Assembly: GCA_000182565.2 (NCBI GenBank)
Contig: KQ257450.1
Source of the DNA: Spizellomyces punctatus DAOM BR117
Taxonomy: Eukaryota
DNA: 64,000 bases
Reading direction: 5' to 3' (one strand)
Part shown: positions 14,532-50,966 of the stretch, piece by piece
Layout: each line of letters opens with the position of its first letter
How positions within the stretch are numbered: position 1 is the first letter of the stretch
Notes under the pieces: model-generated
What the model saw: the letters and a program-made list of their open reading frames with translations, nothing else
What the model was told of the DNA's origin: nothing
Database searches by the model: none
Program-made: the position numbers and the translations under genes

Positions 14532-14603
14532 TAGCACCACCTGGTTTCGATCCAGGGGCCTCAGGGTTATGAGCCCTGCGCGCTTCCTCTGCGCTATGGT
14601 GCT
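14532..14603 (-). tRNA. Initiator tRNA-Met (CAT)
   Basis: AGCACCATAGCGCAGAGGAAGCGCGCAGGGCTCATAACCCTGAGGCCCCTGGATCGAAACCAGGTGGTGCTA: A1-U72 pair, three G-C pairs in the anticodon stem, and GATCGAAAC T-loop, all eukaryotic initiator hallmarks. Confidence 0.96.
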
Positions 14604-15180: not shown

Positions 15181-18100
15181 ATGGCAGATCATCCATCATC
15201 ATCACAACTGCCAGAAATGGTACAAGTCAACAAGGTGGAGGATCCACCTGTAGAGGTTGCTGGCAACAACACAAATGACAGTTACAAGGTGGTGGAAGAC
15301 GATCGCAAGTCTACTCGCTCTCGCAAATCATCATTGCATGAATCCCTTCCCGTCATTCCTTCCATCTCTGCTACGCCTGCTCCCGCTGCATCCGGCCCCA
15401 AAGACCTCGTAGAGACCGCAGAAACATATGCACTTGTCAAATCAGAGAAACCGCCCGCCCCTCCCGCCTCCAAACCCGCTCCTGTCAAGCGCATCTCTTA
15501 CATGGCCCTCTTGATGCGTTACTCGACCAATCTGGAGCGTCTCTTGATGGTCATTGGTCTCATTGCTGCTTGCGGTGCTGGGGCCGTACTGCCGCTCATG
15601 ACCATCATCTTTGGTGACTTGACAAACACTTTTGGCGCCGTGCAAAACACAGACATGTCAGCGTTGACTCCCATCCAACGATCCGCCATCCAGGACGCCA
15701 TGCAAGACACCATCAATGAGAAATCCCTCATTTTTGTCTACCTCGGCATTGCCATGTTCTTTGCTACCTACATTTACATGGCCACTTGGCTCTTTACCGG
15801 GGAAAACATTTCCCATCGCATCCGTGAAGGCTACCTCCAAGCCATCCTCCGTCAAAACATTGCCTATTTTGACTCGACTGGTGGAGGCCAAGTCTCCACC
15901 CGCATCATCACCGATACCCAAATGGTTCAGGATGGCATTAGTGAAAAAGTACCCATGTTTTTCATGAACTTTGCCACCTTTGTCGCTGGTTTCGCCGTCG
16001 CCTTTTCCCACAGCTGGAAACTCACCCTCGTCCTCTTGTGCTGCGTTCCCGCCATTGGCATCACCGCTGCCTTTTTGGGACGCTTTGTCGGCAAGTATAC
16101 CCGTGAAGGACTCAACTCGTACGCGTCCGCCGGTGATGTCGCTGAAGAAACCTTTTCCTCGATTCGCACCGTCACCTCGTTCATGTCCCAAGAAAAAATG
16201 GCCAAAGTCTACTATTCCTTGCTCGGCAAGGCCGAGGTCTTTGGCATCAAAAAGCAAATCGTGACGGGAATGGGATGGGGCTGCATCCAGTTTGTCATTT
16301 TTTCGACATATGCCTTGGCCTTTTGGTACGGCTCCAAAATGCTCGTGGACAAGGAAGTCCTGCCCGGAGACATTATGACATGCTTCTTTTCCGTTCTCAT
16401 TGGTGCCTTTGCCCTCGCTGGTACTTCGAGTGAAGTCACTGCCTTTTCTTTTGCTATTGGTGCGGGGACAACCTTGTTTGAAGCCATTGACCGCCTGCCC
16501 GAGATTGACTCGGCAGCCCCAGGCGGTTACCGCCCTAACGAGGTCCATGGCCGCATTGTCGTCAAGGACGTGAAATTCCGATACCCCTCGCGTCCCGAAG
16601 TCGTTGTCCTCCACGGCATGACCTTGACCATTGAACCGGGAACGACTTGTGCGTTGGTGGGAAGTTCAGGTTCAGGAAAGTCGACCATTATTCAGCTCCT
16701 CGAACGTTTCTATGACCCAGAATCGGGCACTATTCATCTCGACGGTGTTGACATTACCACCCTCAATGTCAAATGGCTCCGTCAGCAAATTGGTTATGTG
16801 ACCCAGGAACCCGTCCTGTTCAAAGGGACCTTGTGGGAGAATGTCGCGCACGGTCTCGTTGGCACAGCCGACGAACAACTGCCAAAAGAGAAGAAAATGG
16901 ACAAGATTATCGAGGCATGCAAGTTTGCCAATGCCCACAACTTTATCATGGCCCTACCCCAAAAGTACGAAACCCGCATTGGTGAGCGCGGTCTGCTCCT
17001 CTCGGGTGGTCAAAAGCAGCGTATCGCCATTGCGCGAGCCATTGTTAAGAACCCACCGATTCTCTTGCTCGACGAGGCCACGTCCGCCCTCGACACCGAG
17101 TCTGAAAAACTGGTCCAAGAAGCGCTTGACCGCGCCGCGCAAGGCCGTACGACCATTGTCATTGCCCACCGACTCTCCACCATTCGGAACGCAGATAATA
17201 TCATTGTCATGGACCAAGGCAGAATCATTGAGACGGGTACTCACCATTCCTTGGTGGCAAAAGAAGGCGGGTTTTACCGTAAGTTGGTGGAAGCACAGCA
17301 GATTAGCGCCAAAAAGGAAGCAGAAGCAGAAAAGGCGAAACCCAAGGTGGACCCTGACGCCGTTGCCCTTGAGGATGAGCAAGAACCAGCAAAGGGTCTT
17401 GTCAGAGCCAACTCTGTGCACTCGACCCATAGCACCCGTTCGGGTAAAAGCATACCAGACGTGTCAACACCTGGCAAGACACCTCAACCTTCGACTCTCG
17501 ACACCCTCCGGATTTTTAACAAGATTATGAAGCTGAACCGTGCGGAAGCCCACTACATTGCGCTCGGTCTCCTCGGTTCCATTGTCAATGGCATCACCCA
17601 ACCCGTGTTTGCTATCCTCTTTGGACACTTTATCAACGTCTTTTTCATCGTGAATGACGATGCCAAATTACGGCACGATGCAGATTTTTGGGCGCTCATG
17701 TTTTTGGTGATTGGGATTGCCAATTTGTTTGCGAGTTTTATAAAGTTTACCATGTTTGGAATTTCGGGAGAAAAGTTGACCACTCGGTACGTTTTTTTTG
17801 GTTTTTTTTTTTAATTATATGGGACATTGAGCTGACGCTTTTTTAATTTATAGCCTGCGTGACAAGTCGTTCCGGACCATGATGCGTCAAGATATTGCGT
17901 GGTTTGACGTGGAAGAACACTCTGTCGGAGCTCTCACGTCCAACCTTTCCAACGACGCCCAAAATGTGCAAAACATGTCTGGCCAAATTGCTGGTAACCT
18001 CCTCGAACTCACCACGTCAATTCTCGGCGGTGCTATTGTAGCCGTCGCGACGGGATGGAAGCTCGGTCTGGTTGTCTTGTCGACCCTCCCACTCATGGTC

Positions 18101-19345
18101 GCCGCCAACAAACTCCGGATGGATTTGATTCGAAAGGGGAACCAAGCCACAAAGATTTACTATGAGCGGTCAGCTCAAGTTGCTTGTGAAGCCGTGGCAG
18201 CCATGCGCACCGTTGCGGCCCTCAGTCGTGAAGAGGATGTGGCTCAGGTCTACCACCACGACTTGGAAGAGCCTCTACGAATCGGTCGCCGAAATGCCAT
18301 TGGGAATACCGCCATTTACGCCTTCTCTCAAACCGTCACGTTCTTGATCAACGCCCTTGGGTTCTGGTACGGTGGTAAACTCATTGTCACGGGAGAATAT
18401 GGGGGCTCGGACGGTGTGCGCACCTTTTTCACAACGTTTATGGCCATTGTCTTTGCCTCCCAAGCCGCGGGCCGTGTCTTTTCGCTCATGCCCGATGTTG
18501 GTAAAGCGCACGATTCCGCTAAATACATGTTGGACCTCTTTGAGCGCAAACCCCCGATTGACAACTGGGACCCCTCTGGCACGAGCTTGGACAAGGCTAC
18601 CACCCAAGGCAAAGTTGAATTCAAAAACGTCCACTTTGTCTACCCCAACCGGCCATCCATCAAGGTCCTCCGTGGCCTCGACCTTGTTGTCAAACCAGGC
18701 CAATTCGTTGCCTTGGTTGGCCCTTCGGGTTGCGGCAAATCCACCACCATTGGCCTCATGGAACGATTTTACGACACTGTTTCTGGCACCATTACCATTG
18801 ACAACCAACCCATCAATTCCCTGTCCATTTCCAACCTCCGCGAGATTGTATCTCTGGTAGGCCAAGAGCCCAACCTCTACAACCTAACCATCAAGGAAAA
18901 CATTTGCTACGGCCTCCCTTCCATGCCCTCTGACGAAACCATTATCCAAGCCGCCAAAGACGCCAACATTCACGATTTCATCACATCCTTACCTGATGGG
19001 TACGATACCTCTCTAGGCGGAAAGGGCACCCAACTCTCTGGCGGCCAAAAACAACGCGTGGCCATTGCCCGTGCTTTAATCCGTAACCCCAAAATCCTCT
19101 TGCTCGACGAAGCGACATCCGCCCTAGACGCCACCTCTGAAAAAGTCGTCCAAGCCGCCCTTGATAAAGCTTCCCGGGGCCGTACGACCATTGCTATTGC
19201 ACATCGGTTGAGTAGTATCAAGGATGCTGATGTGATTTATGTATTCAAGGATGGTGTTGTTGCAGAGTCGGGGACTCATCAGAGTTTGATTGCCGAACGG
19301 GGACTGTATTATCAGTTGGTTGTTCAGCAGGATTTGAGTGGGTAG
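15181..19345 (+). CDS. Full-length ABCB (MDR/P-glycoprotein) transporter, one intron 17787-17853
   Basis: TMD-NBD-TMD-NBD layout. Walker A GSSGSGKST and GPSGCGKST, LSGGQKQR twice, ILLLDEATSALD twice. Intron GTACGT...TAG joins the two ORFs. Confidence 0.96.
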
Positions 19346-19461
19346 ACAGTTTGGGAATGGGGTTTTTTTGGTGTGTTGTATTTTTTTTGTTCTTTTTAGA
19401 TTTTAATACATGCCCTTGAAAAGAATACTGAATGGGACAATGTTTTTTCAAGAATGAACCA

Positions 19462-19491
19462 TAGTGCGGAGCCGGTGGGTATTGGCACTAG
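19462..19491 (+). repeat. Left terminal inverted repeat
   Basis: TAGTGCGGAGCCGGTGGGTATTGGCACTAG is the exact reverse complement of 21702-21731. Confidence 0.97.
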
Positions 19492-19577
19492 TACAGTGAT
19501 TCCAACCAATTGAATCATAATTTTACTCGATTTAGACTCATGAACTATGATTTGATAATGGTTCGATGCACAAACGA

Positions 19578-19756
19578 TGCTCCACCATTAAAAACGGGTC
19601 CAATATGTGCGGCAATGAACGGATTGAATATTCTGCAGTTGCTCCACCATTGAAAAACGGGTCCAATGCGCAGTTGTCATATCTCTATATAAACCCGCCT
19701 TCTCTGCCCATTTCCCAGGTTTTCATCATTCTCTTCCCATTTCCCAGGCTTTCATC
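19578..19756 (+). promoter_or_regulatory. Subterminal direct repeats and TATA-like box upstream of Fanzor
   Basis: TGCTCCACCATT(G)AAAAACGGGTCCAAT at 19578-19604 and 19640-19667; TATATAAA at 19686-19693; CCCATTTCCCAGG(T/C)TTTCATC at 19707-19727 and 19736-19756. Confidence 0.55.
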
Positions 19757-19777
19757 CATTTTTCTATTCCAATCATC

Positions 19778-21643
19778 ATGCCACCAAAGAAGAAGCAAAA
19801 ACTCGACAATCGACCTACCTGTCTGCATTCATGCAACAAGACTTCCTTTGCAAAGGCTTTCTTACCTAATGGGACCTACCGGCAGCGTCTTCTAGATTAC
19901 ATCGCCATCATCCATCAACTCGCCGACCACGCTTCCCACGCTCTCAAATTCTACATCCTATCTGCACCAACCTTCACCGTGAACGAGGAGACCATCGAAG
20001 CAATTCTCTATCTTCTCAACAAGGGGGAGGCTTGGCATCCAAGAAAGGAAGCAAAGAAGGCATGGCGGGATTGTTTGCTGCCATATGTTCAACGGTACTG
20101 CCAAATCGTCGGCTTCGTTCACCCAAATCTACGAGGCGAGCAGCAATCAGTCAATTACCTGACAGCGAGTATGATGGCGAACCTGAAAGTCAACGTTCAA
20201 GAACATTTCATGCAGATGCTCCTTCGGTATATCAATCTGCGGCTCGACGTGAAGGGACACAAGCAGCGACTGCCACTGAAAAGCGATGCGCGGCAAGCTT
20301 TCTTTACTCGGCTATGCTACTTGAAGTCAATTTTCCTTTTTGATATTGTGCCCGAGTCACTCGATGACTTGACCGCTGAAGAGAGTGAGCTTCTAGAAGA
20401 GATGTGGTCCTTCATTCCCCTTTCCGACCAGCCGCTCACATATTCAGTTGCTGTAGACCCTCTCGCCTTCTTCCCTGCCTACTGTCGGTTGTCAAGCCTA
20501 TATGAAAAGCATGGATTTCGACGGTTCAGTGCAATCCCACTTCGCCGCTCCCTCATCCAAAGCCATGTGCGGATCGACACCGTCATCCTCTACTCTCATA
20601 TCCTTTGCATCACGCGGCGAGATGCAGAAGCCGTAGCGAAGGTCGATTTATGGATGCGCATCTGCAATCTGCGTACCAAGGCTTTTCGGTCTCGCCACGA
20701 TATGCAGTTTGAAGGCTCAATCACAACGGACGGTACCTCAGTGTCTGTATACCTAAAGCACCCAGAAGCTGACAAGTACGGAAAGCGCGGAGCGAGAAAG
20801 TCAGCAAAGGCTCTAGCAGCTGAGGTGAAGGTGCTGTATGTGGAAAACAACTTATCTGCTTGTCAAGAGAACATTGTCGTTATCGATCCAAACAAGCGCG
20901 ACATTCTCTACTGCCAAGACAACAAGGGCACCATCTTCCGTTACACCGCCAATCAATGCTGCAAGGAGACTGGAAGCCGTCGATTTGCAAAAGAACGGCA
21001 GCGGATGAAAGCTGGCAGTATTGACCTCATAGAATCACGTATCCCAAGCCACAAGACGATGAACCTCATAGACTTCATGCGTTACCTTCTCGTTCGCTGC
21101 GCTGATTGGGATCGTCGAAAGGACTTCTATTCGCATCCTGCCCACACGCGGTGGAAGTGGCATGCATTTATAAACCGTCAGAAGAGTGAATCGAACCTCA
21201 TATCCAACTTATGCAACAAGTACGGTGAAAACTTTACCATTGTGATGGGAGATTGGAGCGATGCCGGTCGAACTGCAAGATTTCAGACCTCATCAAAGAC
21301 GAAAGGTTGGCGCACCCTCTTTAAGTGCAACAGGATCAACTGCTTCCTTCTCAACGAGTATAAAACCTCATCTGTCTGCCCTCACTGTTCATCCGATGAC
21401 TTCCTTGAAAAAGGTTTCAAAACACGACCTCATTCAAGACCTTGGCGACGACGAGAAGGCAAGATTGAAAAAGTCCATGGATTGCTGGGTTGTACCAACC
21501 CTAACTGTCAGCAAGCCTGGACGATGCGCTACTGGAATCGAGATACGCTGAGCACCTGCAATATGCTGATAATCGTGCAATCAATGTTGGATGGACACAG
21601 TAGACCAGAAGTGTTCAGCAGGAGTGTTCCAGCCGTAGCTTAG
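19778..21643 (+). CDS. Fanzor1 RNA-guided endonuclease (TnpB/Cas12-like, SpuFz1-like), 621 aa
   Basis: N-terminal NLS-like PPKKKQK; ITTDGTSVSV; RuvC-I VVIDPNKRD (D370); MGDWS; RuvC-II NEYKTS (E527); zinc finger CPHC...CTNPNC; RuvC-III WNRD (D589). Strongly resembles the recalled S. punctatus Fanzor1 sequence. Confidence 0.95.
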   Translation: MPPKKKQKLDNRPTCLHSCNKTSFAKAFLPNGTYRQRLLDYIAIIHQLADHASHALKFYILSAPTFTVNEETIEAILYLLNKGEAWHPRKEAKKAWRDCLLPYVQRYCQIVGFVHPNLRGEQQSVNYLTASMMANLKVNVQEHFMQMLLRYINLRLDVKGHKQRLPLKSDARQAFFTRLCYLKSIFLFDIVPESLDDLTAEESELLEEMWSFIPLSDQPLTYSVAVDPLAFFPAYCRLSSLYEKHGFRRFSAIPLRRSLIQSHVRIDTVILYSHILCITRRDAEAVAKVDLWMRICNLRTKAFRSRHDMQFEGSITTDGTSVSVYLKHPEADKYGKRGARKSAKALAAEVKVLYVENNLSACQENIVVIDPNKRDILYCQDNKGTIFRYTANQCCKETGSRRFAKERQRMKAGSIDLIESRIPSHKTMNLIDFMRYLLVRCADWDRRKDFYSHPAHTRWKWHAFINRQKSESNLISNLCNKYGENFTIVMGDWSDAGRTARFQTSSKTKGWRTLFKCNRINCFLLNEYKTSSVCPHCSSDDFLEKGFKTRPHSRPWRRREGKIEKVHGLLGCTNPNCQQAWTMRYWNRDTLSTCNMLIIVQSMLDGHSRPEVFSRSVPAVA

Positions 21644-21657
21644 ATTGGTTAGATTAG

Positions 21658-21746
21658 GTTTTCCGAGCCGGTTGTCGCCGGTTCAATCCCTGGTGCGGGT
21701 GCTAGTGCCAATACCCACCGGCTCCGCACTAAGAATAAACTAGGGT
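21658..21746 (+). ncRNA. Predicted Fanzor omegaRNA: ~74-nt scaffold (21658-21731) plus ~15-nt guide from flanking DNA
   Basis: Begins just after the stop codon and overlaps the right TIR. GAGCCGGT (21665-21672) pairs with ACCGGCTC (21717-21724); TGGTGCGG (21691-21698) can pair with CCGCACTA (21724-21731) as a pseudoknot. Ends are inferred by analogy to the SpuFz1 omegaRNA. Confidence 0.85.
21702..21731 (-). repeat. Right terminal inverted repeat (also the 3' part of the omegaRNA scaffold)
   Basis: CTAGTGCCAATACCCACCGGCTCCGCACTA on the + strand. Confidence 0.97.
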
Positions 21747-22637
21747 TTGGACAAGTGGGAAATTCCCATAGTGATGCAAAAGTATTCGGTCATTAAACGT
21801 CCAATCTACTCTTTATGTAATGTACCCAGTTGGTACTTCAGATAAGATCGTCTACAAATGTGGGGATAAACTAGGACAACTTTTATCCTAAAATGTCTCC
21901 CCATCCCCCACAATGATTACGTGATGCATATCAGGATAAGTTTTTTTTCATTCATTTCTTCGGGTGTTGATGTCAAAAGTGTGTACGCGGCGAGCAATGC
22001 GGATGACTCTATCCACCGTCCTCGCCGTATGAGGCTATGTACGTTGTCGAGTATTTTATCGTTGAGAGTTGGAAGAGTCACATGGCAAGGGGGGAGTGTG
22101 CATAGCCAATCTACCACAGTCTTCTTTTCCCCACATGCCAACAATTTACTGCGTTTGTATGTCATGTTGCATGGTTTGTCGTATTTTTGGTGAAAACTCC
22201 GTGAACACAAATGCATTGTCTCTTTTTGACTCTTTATGCAAAAGGGTTTTTTATTCATGACATCAGATTCGCTCTGAAGTGTTCTTTGCGTGTTTTCTTT
22301 GCGTGCGTGCGTGGGTGAGCGGAAATCTATTTCTTTTGGCATAGTTTTTTTTTTTTTTTCCTTTTTGACGTTGAGGTGTTATTGCTGGATGTGGCCATGC
22401 CCTCTTTTTAACTATTTTGACGCCATGTGAGATACATGGTTATGCAAATGAAAACTCCATGCTAGTGCGAGCAAAAAAGGAACAAGGCAAAAAAAATGGA
22501 TTTTTGCATAGCGTTGCGCACGTTACGGGCCAAAAGTGTATTATATAAAGGCAACCATTACAGCCGTTTCCCCACATCAAACAAAATACTTGAACATTTT
22601 AAACACACACACATTTTGTTTTTCTTGCTCTTTTACA

Positions 22638-23253
22638 ATGCTCAAAGCTCTCCTCTTCAGTCTTCTCCTCACCCTCGCAAGCAGCACACCATGTCGCCGC
22701 ACCAACACCCCAACCCCCCAAAAAGCTACATCCTACCTCCAACCTGACCCATCAGCCTCAACAAAGATAAACGGCACCGTGGACATCACCCAAACCAAAA
22801 CCGGTCTGCACCTCAAACTCTACATTCAAGGTCTTTCACCGGGTGAACACGGGTTCCATGTTCACGCCTTTGGATCCATTTTTCCCAATTGCACTGCAGC
22901 GGGTGATCACTTCAATCCTGACAACACTACCCATGGTGCTCCGACCGATTCTGTACGGCATGCCGGTGATTTGGGTAATATCGTTGCAAATGAGTTTGGA
23001 GTTGTTGATACTGAGATTGTGGATTCGGTTATTGCTTTGGATGGACGGTATAATATCATTGGGTAACGTAACAAGTGGTGATTTTTATCGGTTTTTTTTT
23101 TGTTGATGGTTTTTTTTGGGGTGTTATAGGAGGTCGTTTGTCGTTCATGCCAATCGAGATGATTTGGGTCGTGGGAATGCGCCGACGTCGAAAACGAATG
23201 GGAATTCGGGAGCGAGGGTTGCCTGTGGCGTTATTGGGATTGCTAAATCATAA
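22638..23253 (+). CDS. Secreted Cu/Zn superoxide dismutase (2 exons)
   Basis: Signal peptide [40 protein letters not shown]; second exon [13 protein letters not shown]...[13 protein letters not shown]. Confidence 0.92.
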
Positions 23254-44583: not shown

Positions 44584-45254
44584 AGTATTTCTTTTGTAAT
44601 CAAACGTAGCGAATATAGATAAGGGGAACTTTCCAGTGGCCGTAGGTAAAGACAACTTCGTCCTTTGAGTCTGGCTAGGCAGTTGACAACGTAGATGCGG
44701 CCGCTAAGAAGTCGTAGAAGCCCGCAGTAAAGAGCTTCAAGTCAAACCCACTGGGGGAAAAGAAAAACGAACGCTGCGGGGAAGTTTTATAAAGTCAATG
44801 TACGTAGCTTTTCCACGAGGGGCGAGCGCTGCAGCGGATTGGGAGGAGATTTGGGATCGGAGGGCCAAGCCACACCCTAGAAGTGCATCATCATTCGCGT
44901 ACGCGTGACTTGTTCACTTTCCGCTTGGCAAACAAGTCTCATGAACGGCCCCAACAACCGAAATCACAATGAACGCAGTCAGATGTCATGCCGTCAATGA
45001 CCAAAGAAGGCGCTTCACATTCCGTTAATTGCATGCCTAGAATCCAATTGAATTAGATGAAGCAGAAGAACAGATTTCGGATATCATCCATTAATGATTG
45101 AATCAAGCAATAGAGAGTATTTTGAACAGGTGCCTGTCCGCCTGCTGCCAAAACCAACGTCAACTACATGGCTGAGCACGGCGACGGCATGTCGGCTGAA
45201 TGCGTGAATGTTGGATTAGGGTTATAATAGACAAAATCTCTTTGAGCTCTCTAT

Positions 45255-45337
45255 GGGTGTTTGGCCGAGTTGGTCTAAGGCGCTACGTTCAGGTCGTAGT
45301 CTCTCCGGAGGCGTGAGTTCGAATCTCACAGCACCCA
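45255..45337 (+). tRNA. tRNA-Leu (CAG)
   Basis: GGGTGTT/AGCACCC acceptor stem, CTACG-TTCAGGT-CGTAG anticodon arm, long variable arm, GTTCGAATC T-loop. Confidence 0.95.
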
Positions 45338-45505
45338 TACCGCAGATACCGTGTTGCTTTTTGTCGTTTAGGCCACTGAATCCTCCTCCAGCACAGACTC
45401 GGCACCTAATATTTACGGCATGCACAGAAGAGGTTCATAAGAGCATCCTTCCTGAACAAAGTTGCTCAGCAAGTTGTCGGCGTCCCTTCTGCGCGCGTGG
45501 CACTC

Positions 45506-50764: not shown

Positions 50765-50894
50765 CCCACGCAGGTCTCCTTCCTTTCAGAGTGGACAACT
50801 TGCGCAGAGCGCCATGGACGCAAAAAAAGGGCACGCAAAGGAGGACACCTAATTGCGTAACAGCCAAAAAAAAACCAAGCTGCCCGCGATGCAG

Positions 50895-50966
50895 TAGCAC
50901 CACCTGGTTTCGATCCAGGGGCCTCAGGGTTATGAGCCCTGCGCGCTTCCTCTGCGCTATGGTGCT
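50895..50966 (-). tRNA. Initiator tRNA-Met (CAT), second identical copy
   Basis: Identical 72-nt sequence to 14532-14603. Confidence 0.96.

What the first reader, a model, noticed from the sequence alone, without database searches (positions are those of the whole stretch)
19462..21746. Complete eukaryotic RNA-guided nuclease cassette: Fanzor1 plus omegaRNA inside a TIR-bounded element
Seen in the sequence: an intronless 621-aa ORF in an intron-rich genome, with an NLS-like N-terminus, RuvC-type D370/E527/D589 and a CxxC...CxxxxC finger. It sits between perfect 30-bp inverted repeats and is followed by a self-complementary ~74-nt tract. Established: Fanzors are eukaryotic TnpB/Cas12 relatives that cut DNA using an omegaRNA transcribed across the element's right end, and SpuFz1 from Spizellomyces punctatus is the characterised prototype. 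Inference: this is a complete, possibly active programmable nuclease locus, probably a distinct paralog (it looks somewhat shorter than the recalled SpuFz1). The family is known; this variant's activity is not shown here.
Basis: partly seen in the sequence, partly recalled or inferred. Interest (0 to 1): 0.95.

Follow-up and report, generated by a model that had tools for sequence, protein, structure and literature searches.

The report
Known Fanzor1 transposon copy in Spizellomyces
This is a real, intact-looking copy of the SPu-1 transposon that encodes the RNA-guided nuclease Fanzor1 and its guide RNA, but it belongs to the very family and organism in which Fanzor was first found and characterised, so it is already known.

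Summary
There is a 621-aa ORF at 19778-21643(+). It sits between perfect 30-bp inverted repeats (33 bp at 97%) at 19462-19494 and 21699-21731, and a 74-nt structured tract at 21658-21731 follows it.

The protein matches the solved SpuFz1 structure end to end (8GKH, E=0, 85% identity). It keeps the RuvC residues D370/N372/E527/D589, the CCCC zinc finger and all six TAM-reading residues. CA+TA at the left end spells SpuFz1's CATA TAM. The 3' tract folds into the published omegaRNA shape: stem-loop 1, a 6-nt linker, and stem 2 with an 8-nt loop.

The window is Spizellomyces punctatus DAOM BR117. The locus is the public gene SPPG_00452, identical over aa 1-510. This is the SPu-1 family described by Bao & Jurka 2013 and Saito et al. 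2023, who report 42 loci, 19 of them full-length.

What this work adds:
- The public gene model appears to skip 28 nt and so loses the catalytic C-terminus.
- This copy alone carries R394C and R517C at published nucleic-acid contacts, and its scaffold is one nucleotide shorter than the published one.
- Expression of this particular copy could not be settled.
- Its activity is untested.

The parts
19460..19463 (+). CATA: two flanking bases (CA) plus the first two bases (TA) of the left IR. This equals the TAM of SpuFz1. The TA may be a target-site duplication.
   Evidence: Sequence read. Saito 2023 passages give a 5'-CATA TAM and a conserved CA upstream of the left IR. Bao & Jurka 2013 propose putative TA TSDs.
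19462..19494 (+). Left-end inverted repeat (33 nt; the first 30 are perfect against the right end)
   Evidence: pair I1; 2 matches in the window, 0 in 100 shuffles.
19495..19777 (+). 5' non-coding part of the element, the presumed promoter and 5' UTR. It holds a TATATAAA at 19686-19693, about 85 nt before the ATG, and two pairs of direct repeats (19578-19604/19640-19667 and 19700-19727/19729-19756).
   Evidence: repeats D1, D6, D7; blastn self-hits. The promoter role is an inference only.
19778..21643 (+). Fanzor1 ORF, 621 aa, uninterrupted. It is a paralog of SpuFz1.
   Evidence: 8gkh_P, E=0, 1181 bits, query 2-621; 85% identity to P0003; catalytic, zinc-finger and TAM-reading residues are kept.
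21306..21333 (+). 28 nt (GT...AG) that the public gene model SPPG_00452 appears to splice out. This shifts the frame and removes E527, the zinc finger and D589. It is probably an annotation artefact.
   Evidence: identical over aa 1-510, then divergent; the model's tail maps to the +1 frame from 21333/21334. The paralog alignment supports the unspliced frame. The intron boundaries are my inference.
21658..21731 (+). omegaRNA scaffold, 74 nt: stem-loop 1 (nt 8-27), a 6-nt linker (28-33), and stem 2 with an 8-nt loop (34-74). It overlaps the right IR.
   Evidence: Fold. Nucleotides named in Saito 2023 fit: U5 C6 C7, U16-G20, a 6-nt linker, U35, G37, C40-G70, A72, A75. They match with offset 0 up to nt 20 and offset -1 from the linker on.
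21699..21731 (-). Right-end inverted repeat
21732..21746 (+). Flanking 15 nt, the presumed guide of this locus's omegaRNA. Here the DNA before it reads ACTA, not CATA.
   Evidence: Saito 2023, section 7 read whole: transcripts extend 14-15 nt beyond the scaffold. The stretch is unique in the window. Its role as a guide is an inference.

Best explanation
The region 19462-21731 is one full-length copy of the non-autonomous DNA transposon SPu-1 of Spizellomyces punctatus DAOM BR117. Its only gene encodes a Fanzor1 protein, a close paralog of the characterised SpuFz1.

By homology, the proposed mechanism is as follows. The element is transcribed from its own 5' region. The protein enters the nucleus through its basic N-terminus. 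It binds an RNA of about 89 nt made from the 3' end of the element: a 74-nt scaffold (21658-21731) plus about 15 nt of flanking sequence (21732-21746) that serves as guide. The complex cuts double-stranded DNA that carries CATA followed by the guide match, using the RuvC site D370/E527/D589.

The left end supplies CA+TA. An empty insertion site would therefore read CATA followed directly by the guide-matching flank, so this locus's RNA is aimed at its own empty site. That is TnpB-like homing or retention. The occupied site reads ACTA before the match and should be spared.

Shown here: the anatomy, the homology and the conserved residues. Inferred: expression, RNA binding and cleavage by this particular copy.
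For: Identity of organism and locus:
- The public protein SPPG_00452 of S. punctatus DAOM BR117 is identical over aa 1-510.
- In one search, 16 of the 20 best hits are S. punctatus proteins. Their BLASTP identity over the aligned part is 73-96%.

Protein:
- phmmer against PDB gives SpuFz1 (8gkh) at E=0 over residues 2-621, and Parasitella Fanzor1 at 7.7e-43.
- A profile of 11 sequences also finds Guillardia Fanzor1 at 4.1e-9.
- Of the 31 SpuFz1 residues I took from the paper and mapped, the catalytic D383/N385/E541/D606 and the TAM readers R96/Q129/Q130/N133/R291/Y345 are all identical. The zinc-finger cysteines are kept.

Element:
- 30-nt perfect IRs with CA upstream of the left IR, as Saito 2023 describes.
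- 33-bp TIRs and flanking TA, as Bao & Jurka 2013 describe.

RNA:
- The fold has two stems, a 6-nt linker and an 8-nt loop, at -32.7 kcal/mol and z = -3.9. This matches the published 'canonical' omegaRNA, not the 'ghost' form.

TAM logic:
- CATA at 19460-19463. The guide flank is unique in the window. Any TAM mutation abolishes SpuFz1 cleavage.

Transcription:
- In one raw RNA run, reads in the sense orientation cover 21424-21625 at 10-17x. They also cover the flank outside the element, 21727-21827, at 11.6x.
Against: No experiment bears on this copy.

Two arginines that Saito 2023 names as nucleic-acid contacts are cysteine here. R407 (target-strand backbone) is C394. R531 (U76 at the scaffold-guide junction) is C517. 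No other copy among the 16 S. punctatus sequences aligned has cysteine at either site. D526N lies next to the catalytic E527.

The scaffold is 74 nt rather than 75. It seems to lack the nucleotide numbered G22 in the paper. This is inferred from the paper's numbering and from reads of other copies that carry one extra G before 21679 (11 reads and 1 contig).

Most reads over the scaffold come from other loci: 1344 reads diverge from this locus upstream of 21654. omegaRNA expression from this locus is therefore not shown.

Sense depth over the body of the ORF is about 0 in that run. The run looks 3'-biased, though: the neighbouring ABC gene is covered only in its last ~300 nt. This says little either way.

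Pfam and NCBIfam give no TnpB or OrfB hit.

No transposase lies within the IRs. How the element moves is unknown, and the paper says the same.
Confidence: 0.9

Rival explanations
1. The copy is structurally complete but functionally weakened or silenced. It would be an ageing transposon copy whose open ORF is kept by youth rather than by selection. Its RNA end might still be used in trans by other Fanzor copies, as is proposed for ghost elements.
For: There are 12 private substitutions against 10 relatives. Nine have codons compatible with single CpG transitions: four R-to-C as TGC, one R-to-H as CAC, one A-to-V as GTG, and D-to-N and two G-to-S each after a C. Two of the changes hit published nucleic-acid contacts (R407, R531).

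In S. punctatus, 5mC is confined to transposons (passages of PMC12695648).

Antisense-oriented reads cover 19505-20110 at 10-26x.
Against: Against 16 S. punctatus copies this one has 7 private changes. That is inside the family range of 4-13, and SpuFz1 itself has 6.

CpG observed/expected in the element is 0.92, equal to the window median, so there is no bulk decay.

The ORF, the IRs (30 of 30), the catalytic residues and the TAM readers are all intact.

Ancestral codons could not be checked because no paralog DNA was available.
Confidence: 0.3
2. The omegaRNA is its own RNA polymerase III transcription unit, driven by tRNA-gene-like internal A and B boxes. These would run from the stop codon into stem-loop 1 and the linker. 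On this view the RNA is not cut out of the Fanzor mRNA.
For: A composite of an A-box-like and a B-box-like motif lies at 21636-21690, with 44 nt from start to start, the spacing found in tRNA genes. It occurs once in the window. In 200 shuffles the mean count was 0.01. Consensus motifs and spacing are recalled textbook knowledge.
Against: I wrote the pattern after seeing the sequence.

ARAGORN finds no tRNA at default or 90% thresholds. The call at 80% (21630-21702) is noise: 30 calls in the real window against 29.6 per shuffled window, and 27 hits in 400 shuffles of the region. Rfam gives no tRNA match even at E<=10 on 161 nt.

Saito 2023 obtained the same RNA in yeast from a single Pol II-driven ORF-plus-IR construct.

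The B-box-like bases are also protein-contacting scaffold bases, so their conservation needs no promoter role.
Confidence: 0.06
3. The gene is a domesticated host gene rather than part of a mobile element.
For: No transposase lies inside the IRs (Saito 2023 discussion).
Against: The terminal IRs are perfect. TA flanks both ends. Dozens of near-identical copies exist in the same genome. The insertion lies 117 nt after a neighbouring gene's stop codon.
Confidence: 0.02

Closest known systems
SpuFz1 (SPPG_07727; PDB 8GKH, 9CEU-9CEZ), the characterised Fanzor1 of S. punctatus
   Same: Same genome and same SPu-1 family. 85% amino-acid identity over the full length. The RuvC D/N/E/D residues, CCCC zinc finger, six TAM-reading residues, MPPKKKQKL N-terminus, 30-nt IRs, CA+TA left end and two-stem omegaRNA architecture all match.
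   Different: 621 against 638 aa, through small deletions in the N-terminal, REC and C-terminal regions. R407C, R531C and D540N equivalents are present. It carries Arg where SpuFz1 has C310; C310R is one of the paper's activity-raising mutations. The scaffold is 74 nt, not 75. Activity is untested.
SPu-1 element / SPu-1-1p (Bao & Jurka 2013), the founding Fanzor element
   Same: About 2.1-2.3 kb, a single ORF, 33-bp TIRs, putative TA duplication, many copies in S. punctatus (passages only).
   Different: Their consensus protein is 633 aa. I could not see their sequence files, so the identity of this copy with one of their 17 copies is assumed, not checked.
Bacterial IS200/IS605 TnpB with omegaRNA (e.g. 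ISDra2)
   Same: Works alike: a RuvC nuclease guided by an RNA that spans the right end and reads the flank. The TAM equals the left-end target motif, so the RNA is aimed at the empty site.
   Different: No detectable sequence match here. The REC domain is larger. There is no pseudoknot in the RNA (paper legend). There is no TnpA partner. The element has TIRs and TA flanks instead of sub-terminal hairpins.

Membership tests
Fanzor1 (SpuFz1 / SPu-1 family) | Full-length sequence homology to a characterised Fanzor1 | tested here: met
   8gkh_P at E=0, 1181 bits, query 2-621; the profile also hits the Parasitella and Guillardia Fanzor1 structures.
Fanzor1 (SpuFz1 / SPu-1 family) | Split RuvC catalytic residues (SpuFz1 D383, N385, E541, D606) | tested here: met
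   D370, N372, E527 and D589 align with them.
Fanzor1 (SpuFz1 / SPu-1 family) | CCCC zinc finger in the NUC/TNB domain | tested here: met
   C534, C537, C572 and C577 are conserved in the paralogs that cover the region. The motif is named in a paper legend.
Fanzor1 (SpuFz1 / SPu-1 family) | 30-nt terminal IRs with CA upstream of the left IR (CATA TAM) | tested here: met
   against the description.
Fanzor1 (SpuFz1 / SPu-1 family) | [quoted passage not shown] | tested here: met
   Fold. Positions of the named nucleotides agree, apart from a 1-nt shorter stem-loop 1.
Fanzor1 (SpuFz1 / SPu-1 family) | The omegaRNA is expressed from this locus | tested here: inconclusive
   459x over 21626-21726, but 1344 reads belong to other copies. 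Only 11.6x lies in the flank outside the element. The run is not a small-RNA library. No RNA holder was indexed.
Fanzor1 (SpuFz1 / SPu-1 family) | RNA-guided, TAM-dependent dsDNA cleavage | not testable with these tools
   Needs biochemistry. It is shown for SpuFz1 only.
Bacterial TnpB (Pfam OrfB_IS605 / OrfB_Zn_ribbon) | Match to the family's sequence models | tested here: not met
   Pfam gives only a sub-threshold DUF7537 hit at E=0.071. NCBIfam gives none. The PDB profile finds Fanzor1 chains only. The relationship rests on published structure comparison and on about 15% identity reported.
Tc1/mariner-type autonomous transposon (TA target, TIRs) | A DDE/D transposase encoded between the TIRs | tested here: not met
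   Only the Fanzor ORF and short ORFs that overlap it lie between the IRs. Saito 2023 also found no transposase in SPu-1 elements.

The most novel reading that the evidence does not exclude
The 3' end of SPu-1 may carry a tRNA-gene-like internal Pol III promoter: an A-box-like motif across the stop codon and a B-box-like motif in stem-loop 1 and the linker, 44 nt apart. The eukaryotic omegaRNA would then be made as its own nuclear Pol III transcript rather than processed from the mRNA. That would be a eukaryote-specific solution to separating guide production from mRNA export.
Probability: 0.06. Interest if true: 0.5.

Novelty: already known. Interest (0 to 1): 0.15.

Why it matters
Fanzor is the eukaryotic counterpart of TnpB/Cas12 and a compact genome-editing scaffold, so a complete locus is a valid thing to flag. 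This one, however, is a catalogued copy of the prototype family in the prototype strain, and it opens no new question.

Three practical points remain:
- The public gene model for this copy (SPPG_00452) appears truncated by a false 28-nt intron. Protein-based surveys would therefore score it as catalytically dead.
- The copy is a natural variant. It has two lost contact arginines, and it carries Arg at the position where C310R raised SpuFz1 activity. It could serve as a cheap natural structure-function data point.
- The locus shows plainly that its own guide is aimed at its own empty site, with the correct TAM.

Tried and rejected
- **Own genome:** none is held. Copy number, empty sites and paralog DNA could not be examined. 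The search of earlier findings returned nothing for this genome.
- **tRNA or Rfam identity of the 3' tract:** ARAGORN at default found none. Rfam found none at E<=1 on 2.6 kb. At E<=10 on 161 nt the only hit was a sub-threshold group II intron D5 model (12.5 bits against a gathering score of 65.5, E=4.4), which I take as chance. The ARAGORN call at an 80% threshold is at noise level.
- **Bulk CpG decay of the element:** rejected. Observed/expected is 0.92, equal to the window median.
- **'This copy is unusually mutated':** rejected. It has 7 private changes against a family range of 4-13.
- **Bacterial promoter/terminator scan:** irrelevant for a eukaryote. It found 4 sites against 3.0 expected.
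- **Other SPu-1 or ghost copies in the window:** none, by blastn with word size 7 or by IR search with up to 3 mismatches.
- **RNA runs:** no RNA holder was listed for the stretch. Run X9 laid nothing. X1 and X2 are of unknown kind, with short contigs that cover mainly the repeated element, so I did not use them as evidence.
- **Joints:** no joint at the public model's putative intron was seen, but sense depth there is at most 1.4, so this is no test.
- **Papers:** the Cell 2024 paper (PMC11423790, passages only) does not mention R407 or R531. Supplementary Data 1-2 of Saito 2023 and the additional files of Bao & Jurka 2013 were not seen. These list the loci and could show whether this copy is among those with a detected small RNA.
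Full report
**What is in the sequence**

The window has an uninterrupted 621-aa ORF at 19778-21643 on the + strand. It lies between inverted repeats at 19462-19494 and 21699-21731. These are 33 nt long at 97% complementarity, and the outer 30 nt are perfect. The 28-nt core of the repeat occurs exactly twice in the 64-kb window and never in 100 shuffles. No further copy or fragment of the element is in the window (blastn).

The left repeat is preceded by CA and begins with TA. The right repeat ends with TA. The element therefore spans 19462-21731 (2270 bp).

**What the protein is**

phmmer against all PDB chains gives the cryo-EM structure of Spizellomyces punctatus Fanzor1 (8gkh and six further entries) at E=0 and 1181 bits, covering query residues 2-621. 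Parasitella parasitica Fanzor1 follows at 7.7e-43. A profile of 11 family members adds Guillardia theta Fanzor1 at 4.1e-9 and nothing else.

The large protein search returned 50 hits. Sixteen of the best 20 are proteins of S. punctatus DAOM BR117. One of them, SPPG_00452 (581 aa), is identical to the ORF over residues 1-510 and then diverges. The window is therefore that strain's genome, and this locus is that gene. P0003 (SPPG_07727, 638 aa) matches the PDB chain's sequence as printed, so it is SpuFz1 proper. The ORF here is 85% identical to it.

**Functional residues**

I mapped 31 SpuFz1 residues taken from Saito et al. 2023 (PMC10432273; passages, section 7 read whole).
- The metal ligands D383/N385/E541/D606 correspond to D370/N372/E527/D589.
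- The TAM readers R96, Q129, Q130, N133, R291 and Y345 are all identical.
- The four zinc-finger cysteines (C534, C537, C572, C577) are kept.
- Two named contacts are lost. R407 (target-strand backbone) is C394. R531 (contacts U76 at the scaffold-guide junction) is C517.

Among 16 other S. punctatus copies aligned, none has cysteine at either position. D526N lies next to the catalytic Glu. This copy has Arg where SpuFz1 has C310; C310R was one of the paper's activity-raising mutations.

**The RNA end**

The 74 nt at 21658-21731 fold into a hairpin (nt 8-27), a 6-nt linker, and a long second stem with an 8-nt loop. The energy is -32.7 kcal/mol, z = -3.9, and 0 of 200 shuffles fold as well. With 14 nt of upstream sequence and the 15-nt flank added, the z-score drops to -1.77.

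The paper describes a 75-nt scaffold of two stems and a 6-nt linker, an 8-nt hairpin loop in canonical (not ghost) omegaRNAs, and a 14-15-nt variable guide beyond the repeat. Counting from 21658, the nucleotides the paper names fit exactly up to position 20 (U5, C6, C7, U16-G20). From the linker onward they fit with an offset of one (A29-C34, U35, G37, C40, G70, A72, A75). This copy is therefore one nucleotide shorter inside stem-loop 1.

Reads and one contig from other copies carry one extra G just before 21679 (11 reads and 1 contig). That would be the paper's G22. This last point is an inference from fragments.

**How it most likely works**

SpuFz1 needs a 5'-CATA TAM, and any change to the TAM abolishes cleavage. 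Here CA (flank) plus TA (first bases of the repeat, or a TA duplication as Bao & Jurka 2013 proposed) spell CATA at 19460-19463.

An empty site would read CATA followed at once by the 15 nt now at 21732-21746, which is the guide this locus's RNA would carry. The occupied site reads ACTA before the same 15 nt. The locus is thus wired to cut its own empty site and spare itself, as in the TnpB homing or retention model that the paper discusses. The guide stretch is unique in the window.

No transposase is encoded between the repeats, as the paper also reports for all SPu-1 elements. The 5' non-coding 283 nt hold a TATATAAA about 85 nt before the ATG and two pairs of direct repeats. A promoter role for these is only an inference.

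**Expression**

No indexed RNA run holds the stretch. I laid one raw RNA run of the same species label (about 6% of it read, reads up to 60 nt, at least 98% alike), two small runs of unknown kind, and one guessed RNA run.

In the raw run the neighbouring + strand ABC-transporter gene is covered only over its last ~300 nt, at 24-50x with the first mate on +. The library therefore looks 3'-biased, and '+' means sense.
- Sense depth is about 0 over 19707-21322 and 1.4x over 21323-21423.
- It is 10-17x over 21424-21625.
- It is 459x over 21626-21726.
- It is 11.6x over the flank 21727-21827.

However, 1344 reads part from this locus upstream of 21654, and others part at 21683-21695 or at 21731. 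The peak therefore belongs mainly to other loci that share the scaffold. Only the flank reads are specific to this locus. They show some read-through transcription but not a mature omegaRNA.

Reads in the opposite orientation cover 19505-20110 at 10-26x. Several carry paralog variants. There is thus antisense transcription over the 5' part of SPu-1 copies, though not necessarily of this one.

**Is this copy decaying?**

Against 10 relatives it has 12 private substitutions. Nine have codons that fit single CpG transitions. In S. punctatus, 5mC is reported to be confined to transposons (PMC12695648, passages).

On the other hand, against 16 S. punctatus copies it has 7 private changes, inside the family range of 4-13; SpuFz1 itself has 6. 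The element's CpG observed/expected of 0.92 equals the window median. I conclude that it is an ordinary member of the family. Two substitutions deserve a test, but it is not a visibly degenerate copy.

**Annotation problem**

The tail of the public model maps to the +1 frame from 21333/21334. The only GT...AG solution is a 28-nt 'intron' at 21306-21333. This would remove E527, the zinc finger and D589. All paralogs support the unspliced frame. The read data cannot test it, because there were no joints and almost no sense depth there.

**A lead that did not hold up**

The stretch from the stop codon into stem-loop 1 resembles tRNA-gene A and B boxes, 44 nt apart. The composite pattern is unique in the window against 0.01 expected, but I wrote it after seeing the sequence.

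ARAGORN finds nothing at default or 90% thresholds, and its 80% call is at noise level. Rfam finds no tRNA. The paper made the RNA in yeast from one Pol II construct. I keep a Pol III unit only as a low-probability novel reading.

**Comparison and verdict**

The locus meets every sequence-testable criterion of the SpuFz1/SPu-1 Fanzor1 family. It does not match bacterial TnpB models directly; that link is structural and comes from the literature.

The family was discovered in this organism (Bao & Jurka 2013: 17 full-length copies, nine with intact ORFs). It was characterised in depth there (Saito 2023: 42 loci, 19 full-length, 134 ghosts). Further structures appeared in 2024 (PMC11423790, passages).

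The finding is real and correctly interpreted, but already known. I could not see the papers' supplementary locus lists, so whether this exact copy was among those with a detected small RNA remains open.

Noticed in passing
window 21306-21333: The public gene model SPPG_00452 (581 aa) equals this ORF for aa 1-510 and then continues in the +1 frame. This implies a 28-nt GT...AG intron that deletes the RuvC Glu, the zinc finger and the last Asp. It is probably a mis-annotation. Several paralog models also look shortened in the same region (e.g. P0007).
   Followed up: partly
window 19505-20110: In the raw RNA run, reads oriented antisense to the Fanzor gene cover the 5' end of the element at 10-26x. 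Some carry paralog variants. This suggests antisense transcripts over SPu-1 5' regions.
   Followed up: no
window 21654-21695: There is very high read depth (459x) over the scaffold's stem-loop 1. It comes mostly from other loci: 1344 reads diverge upstream of 21654, and 52, 11 and 14 reads diverge after 21683, 21685 and 21695. Related scaffolds, perhaps the published 'ghost' elements, are abundantly transcribed.
   Followed up: no
window 19578-19667 and 19700-19756: Two pairs of direct repeats (27-28 nt) and a TATATAAA at 19686-19693 lie in the element's 5' non-coding region. They may be promoter elements.
   Followed up: no
window 21636-21690: A-box-like and B-box-like motifs lie at tRNA-gene spacing, across the stop codon and stem-loop 1. 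The statistical support is weak and post hoc.
   Followed up: yes
window 17879-19345 and 22638-23066: The element sits between the 3' end of an ABC-transporter-like ORF (stop codon 117 nt before the left IR) and an ORF that looks by eye like a Cu/Zn superoxide dismutase. Neither was searched; the names come from motifs I recognise in the translations.
   Followed up: no
window 14532-14603, 45254-45338, 50894-50966: ARAGORN at default thresholds calls three tRNA genes: Met-CAT twice and Leu-CAG.
   Followed up: no
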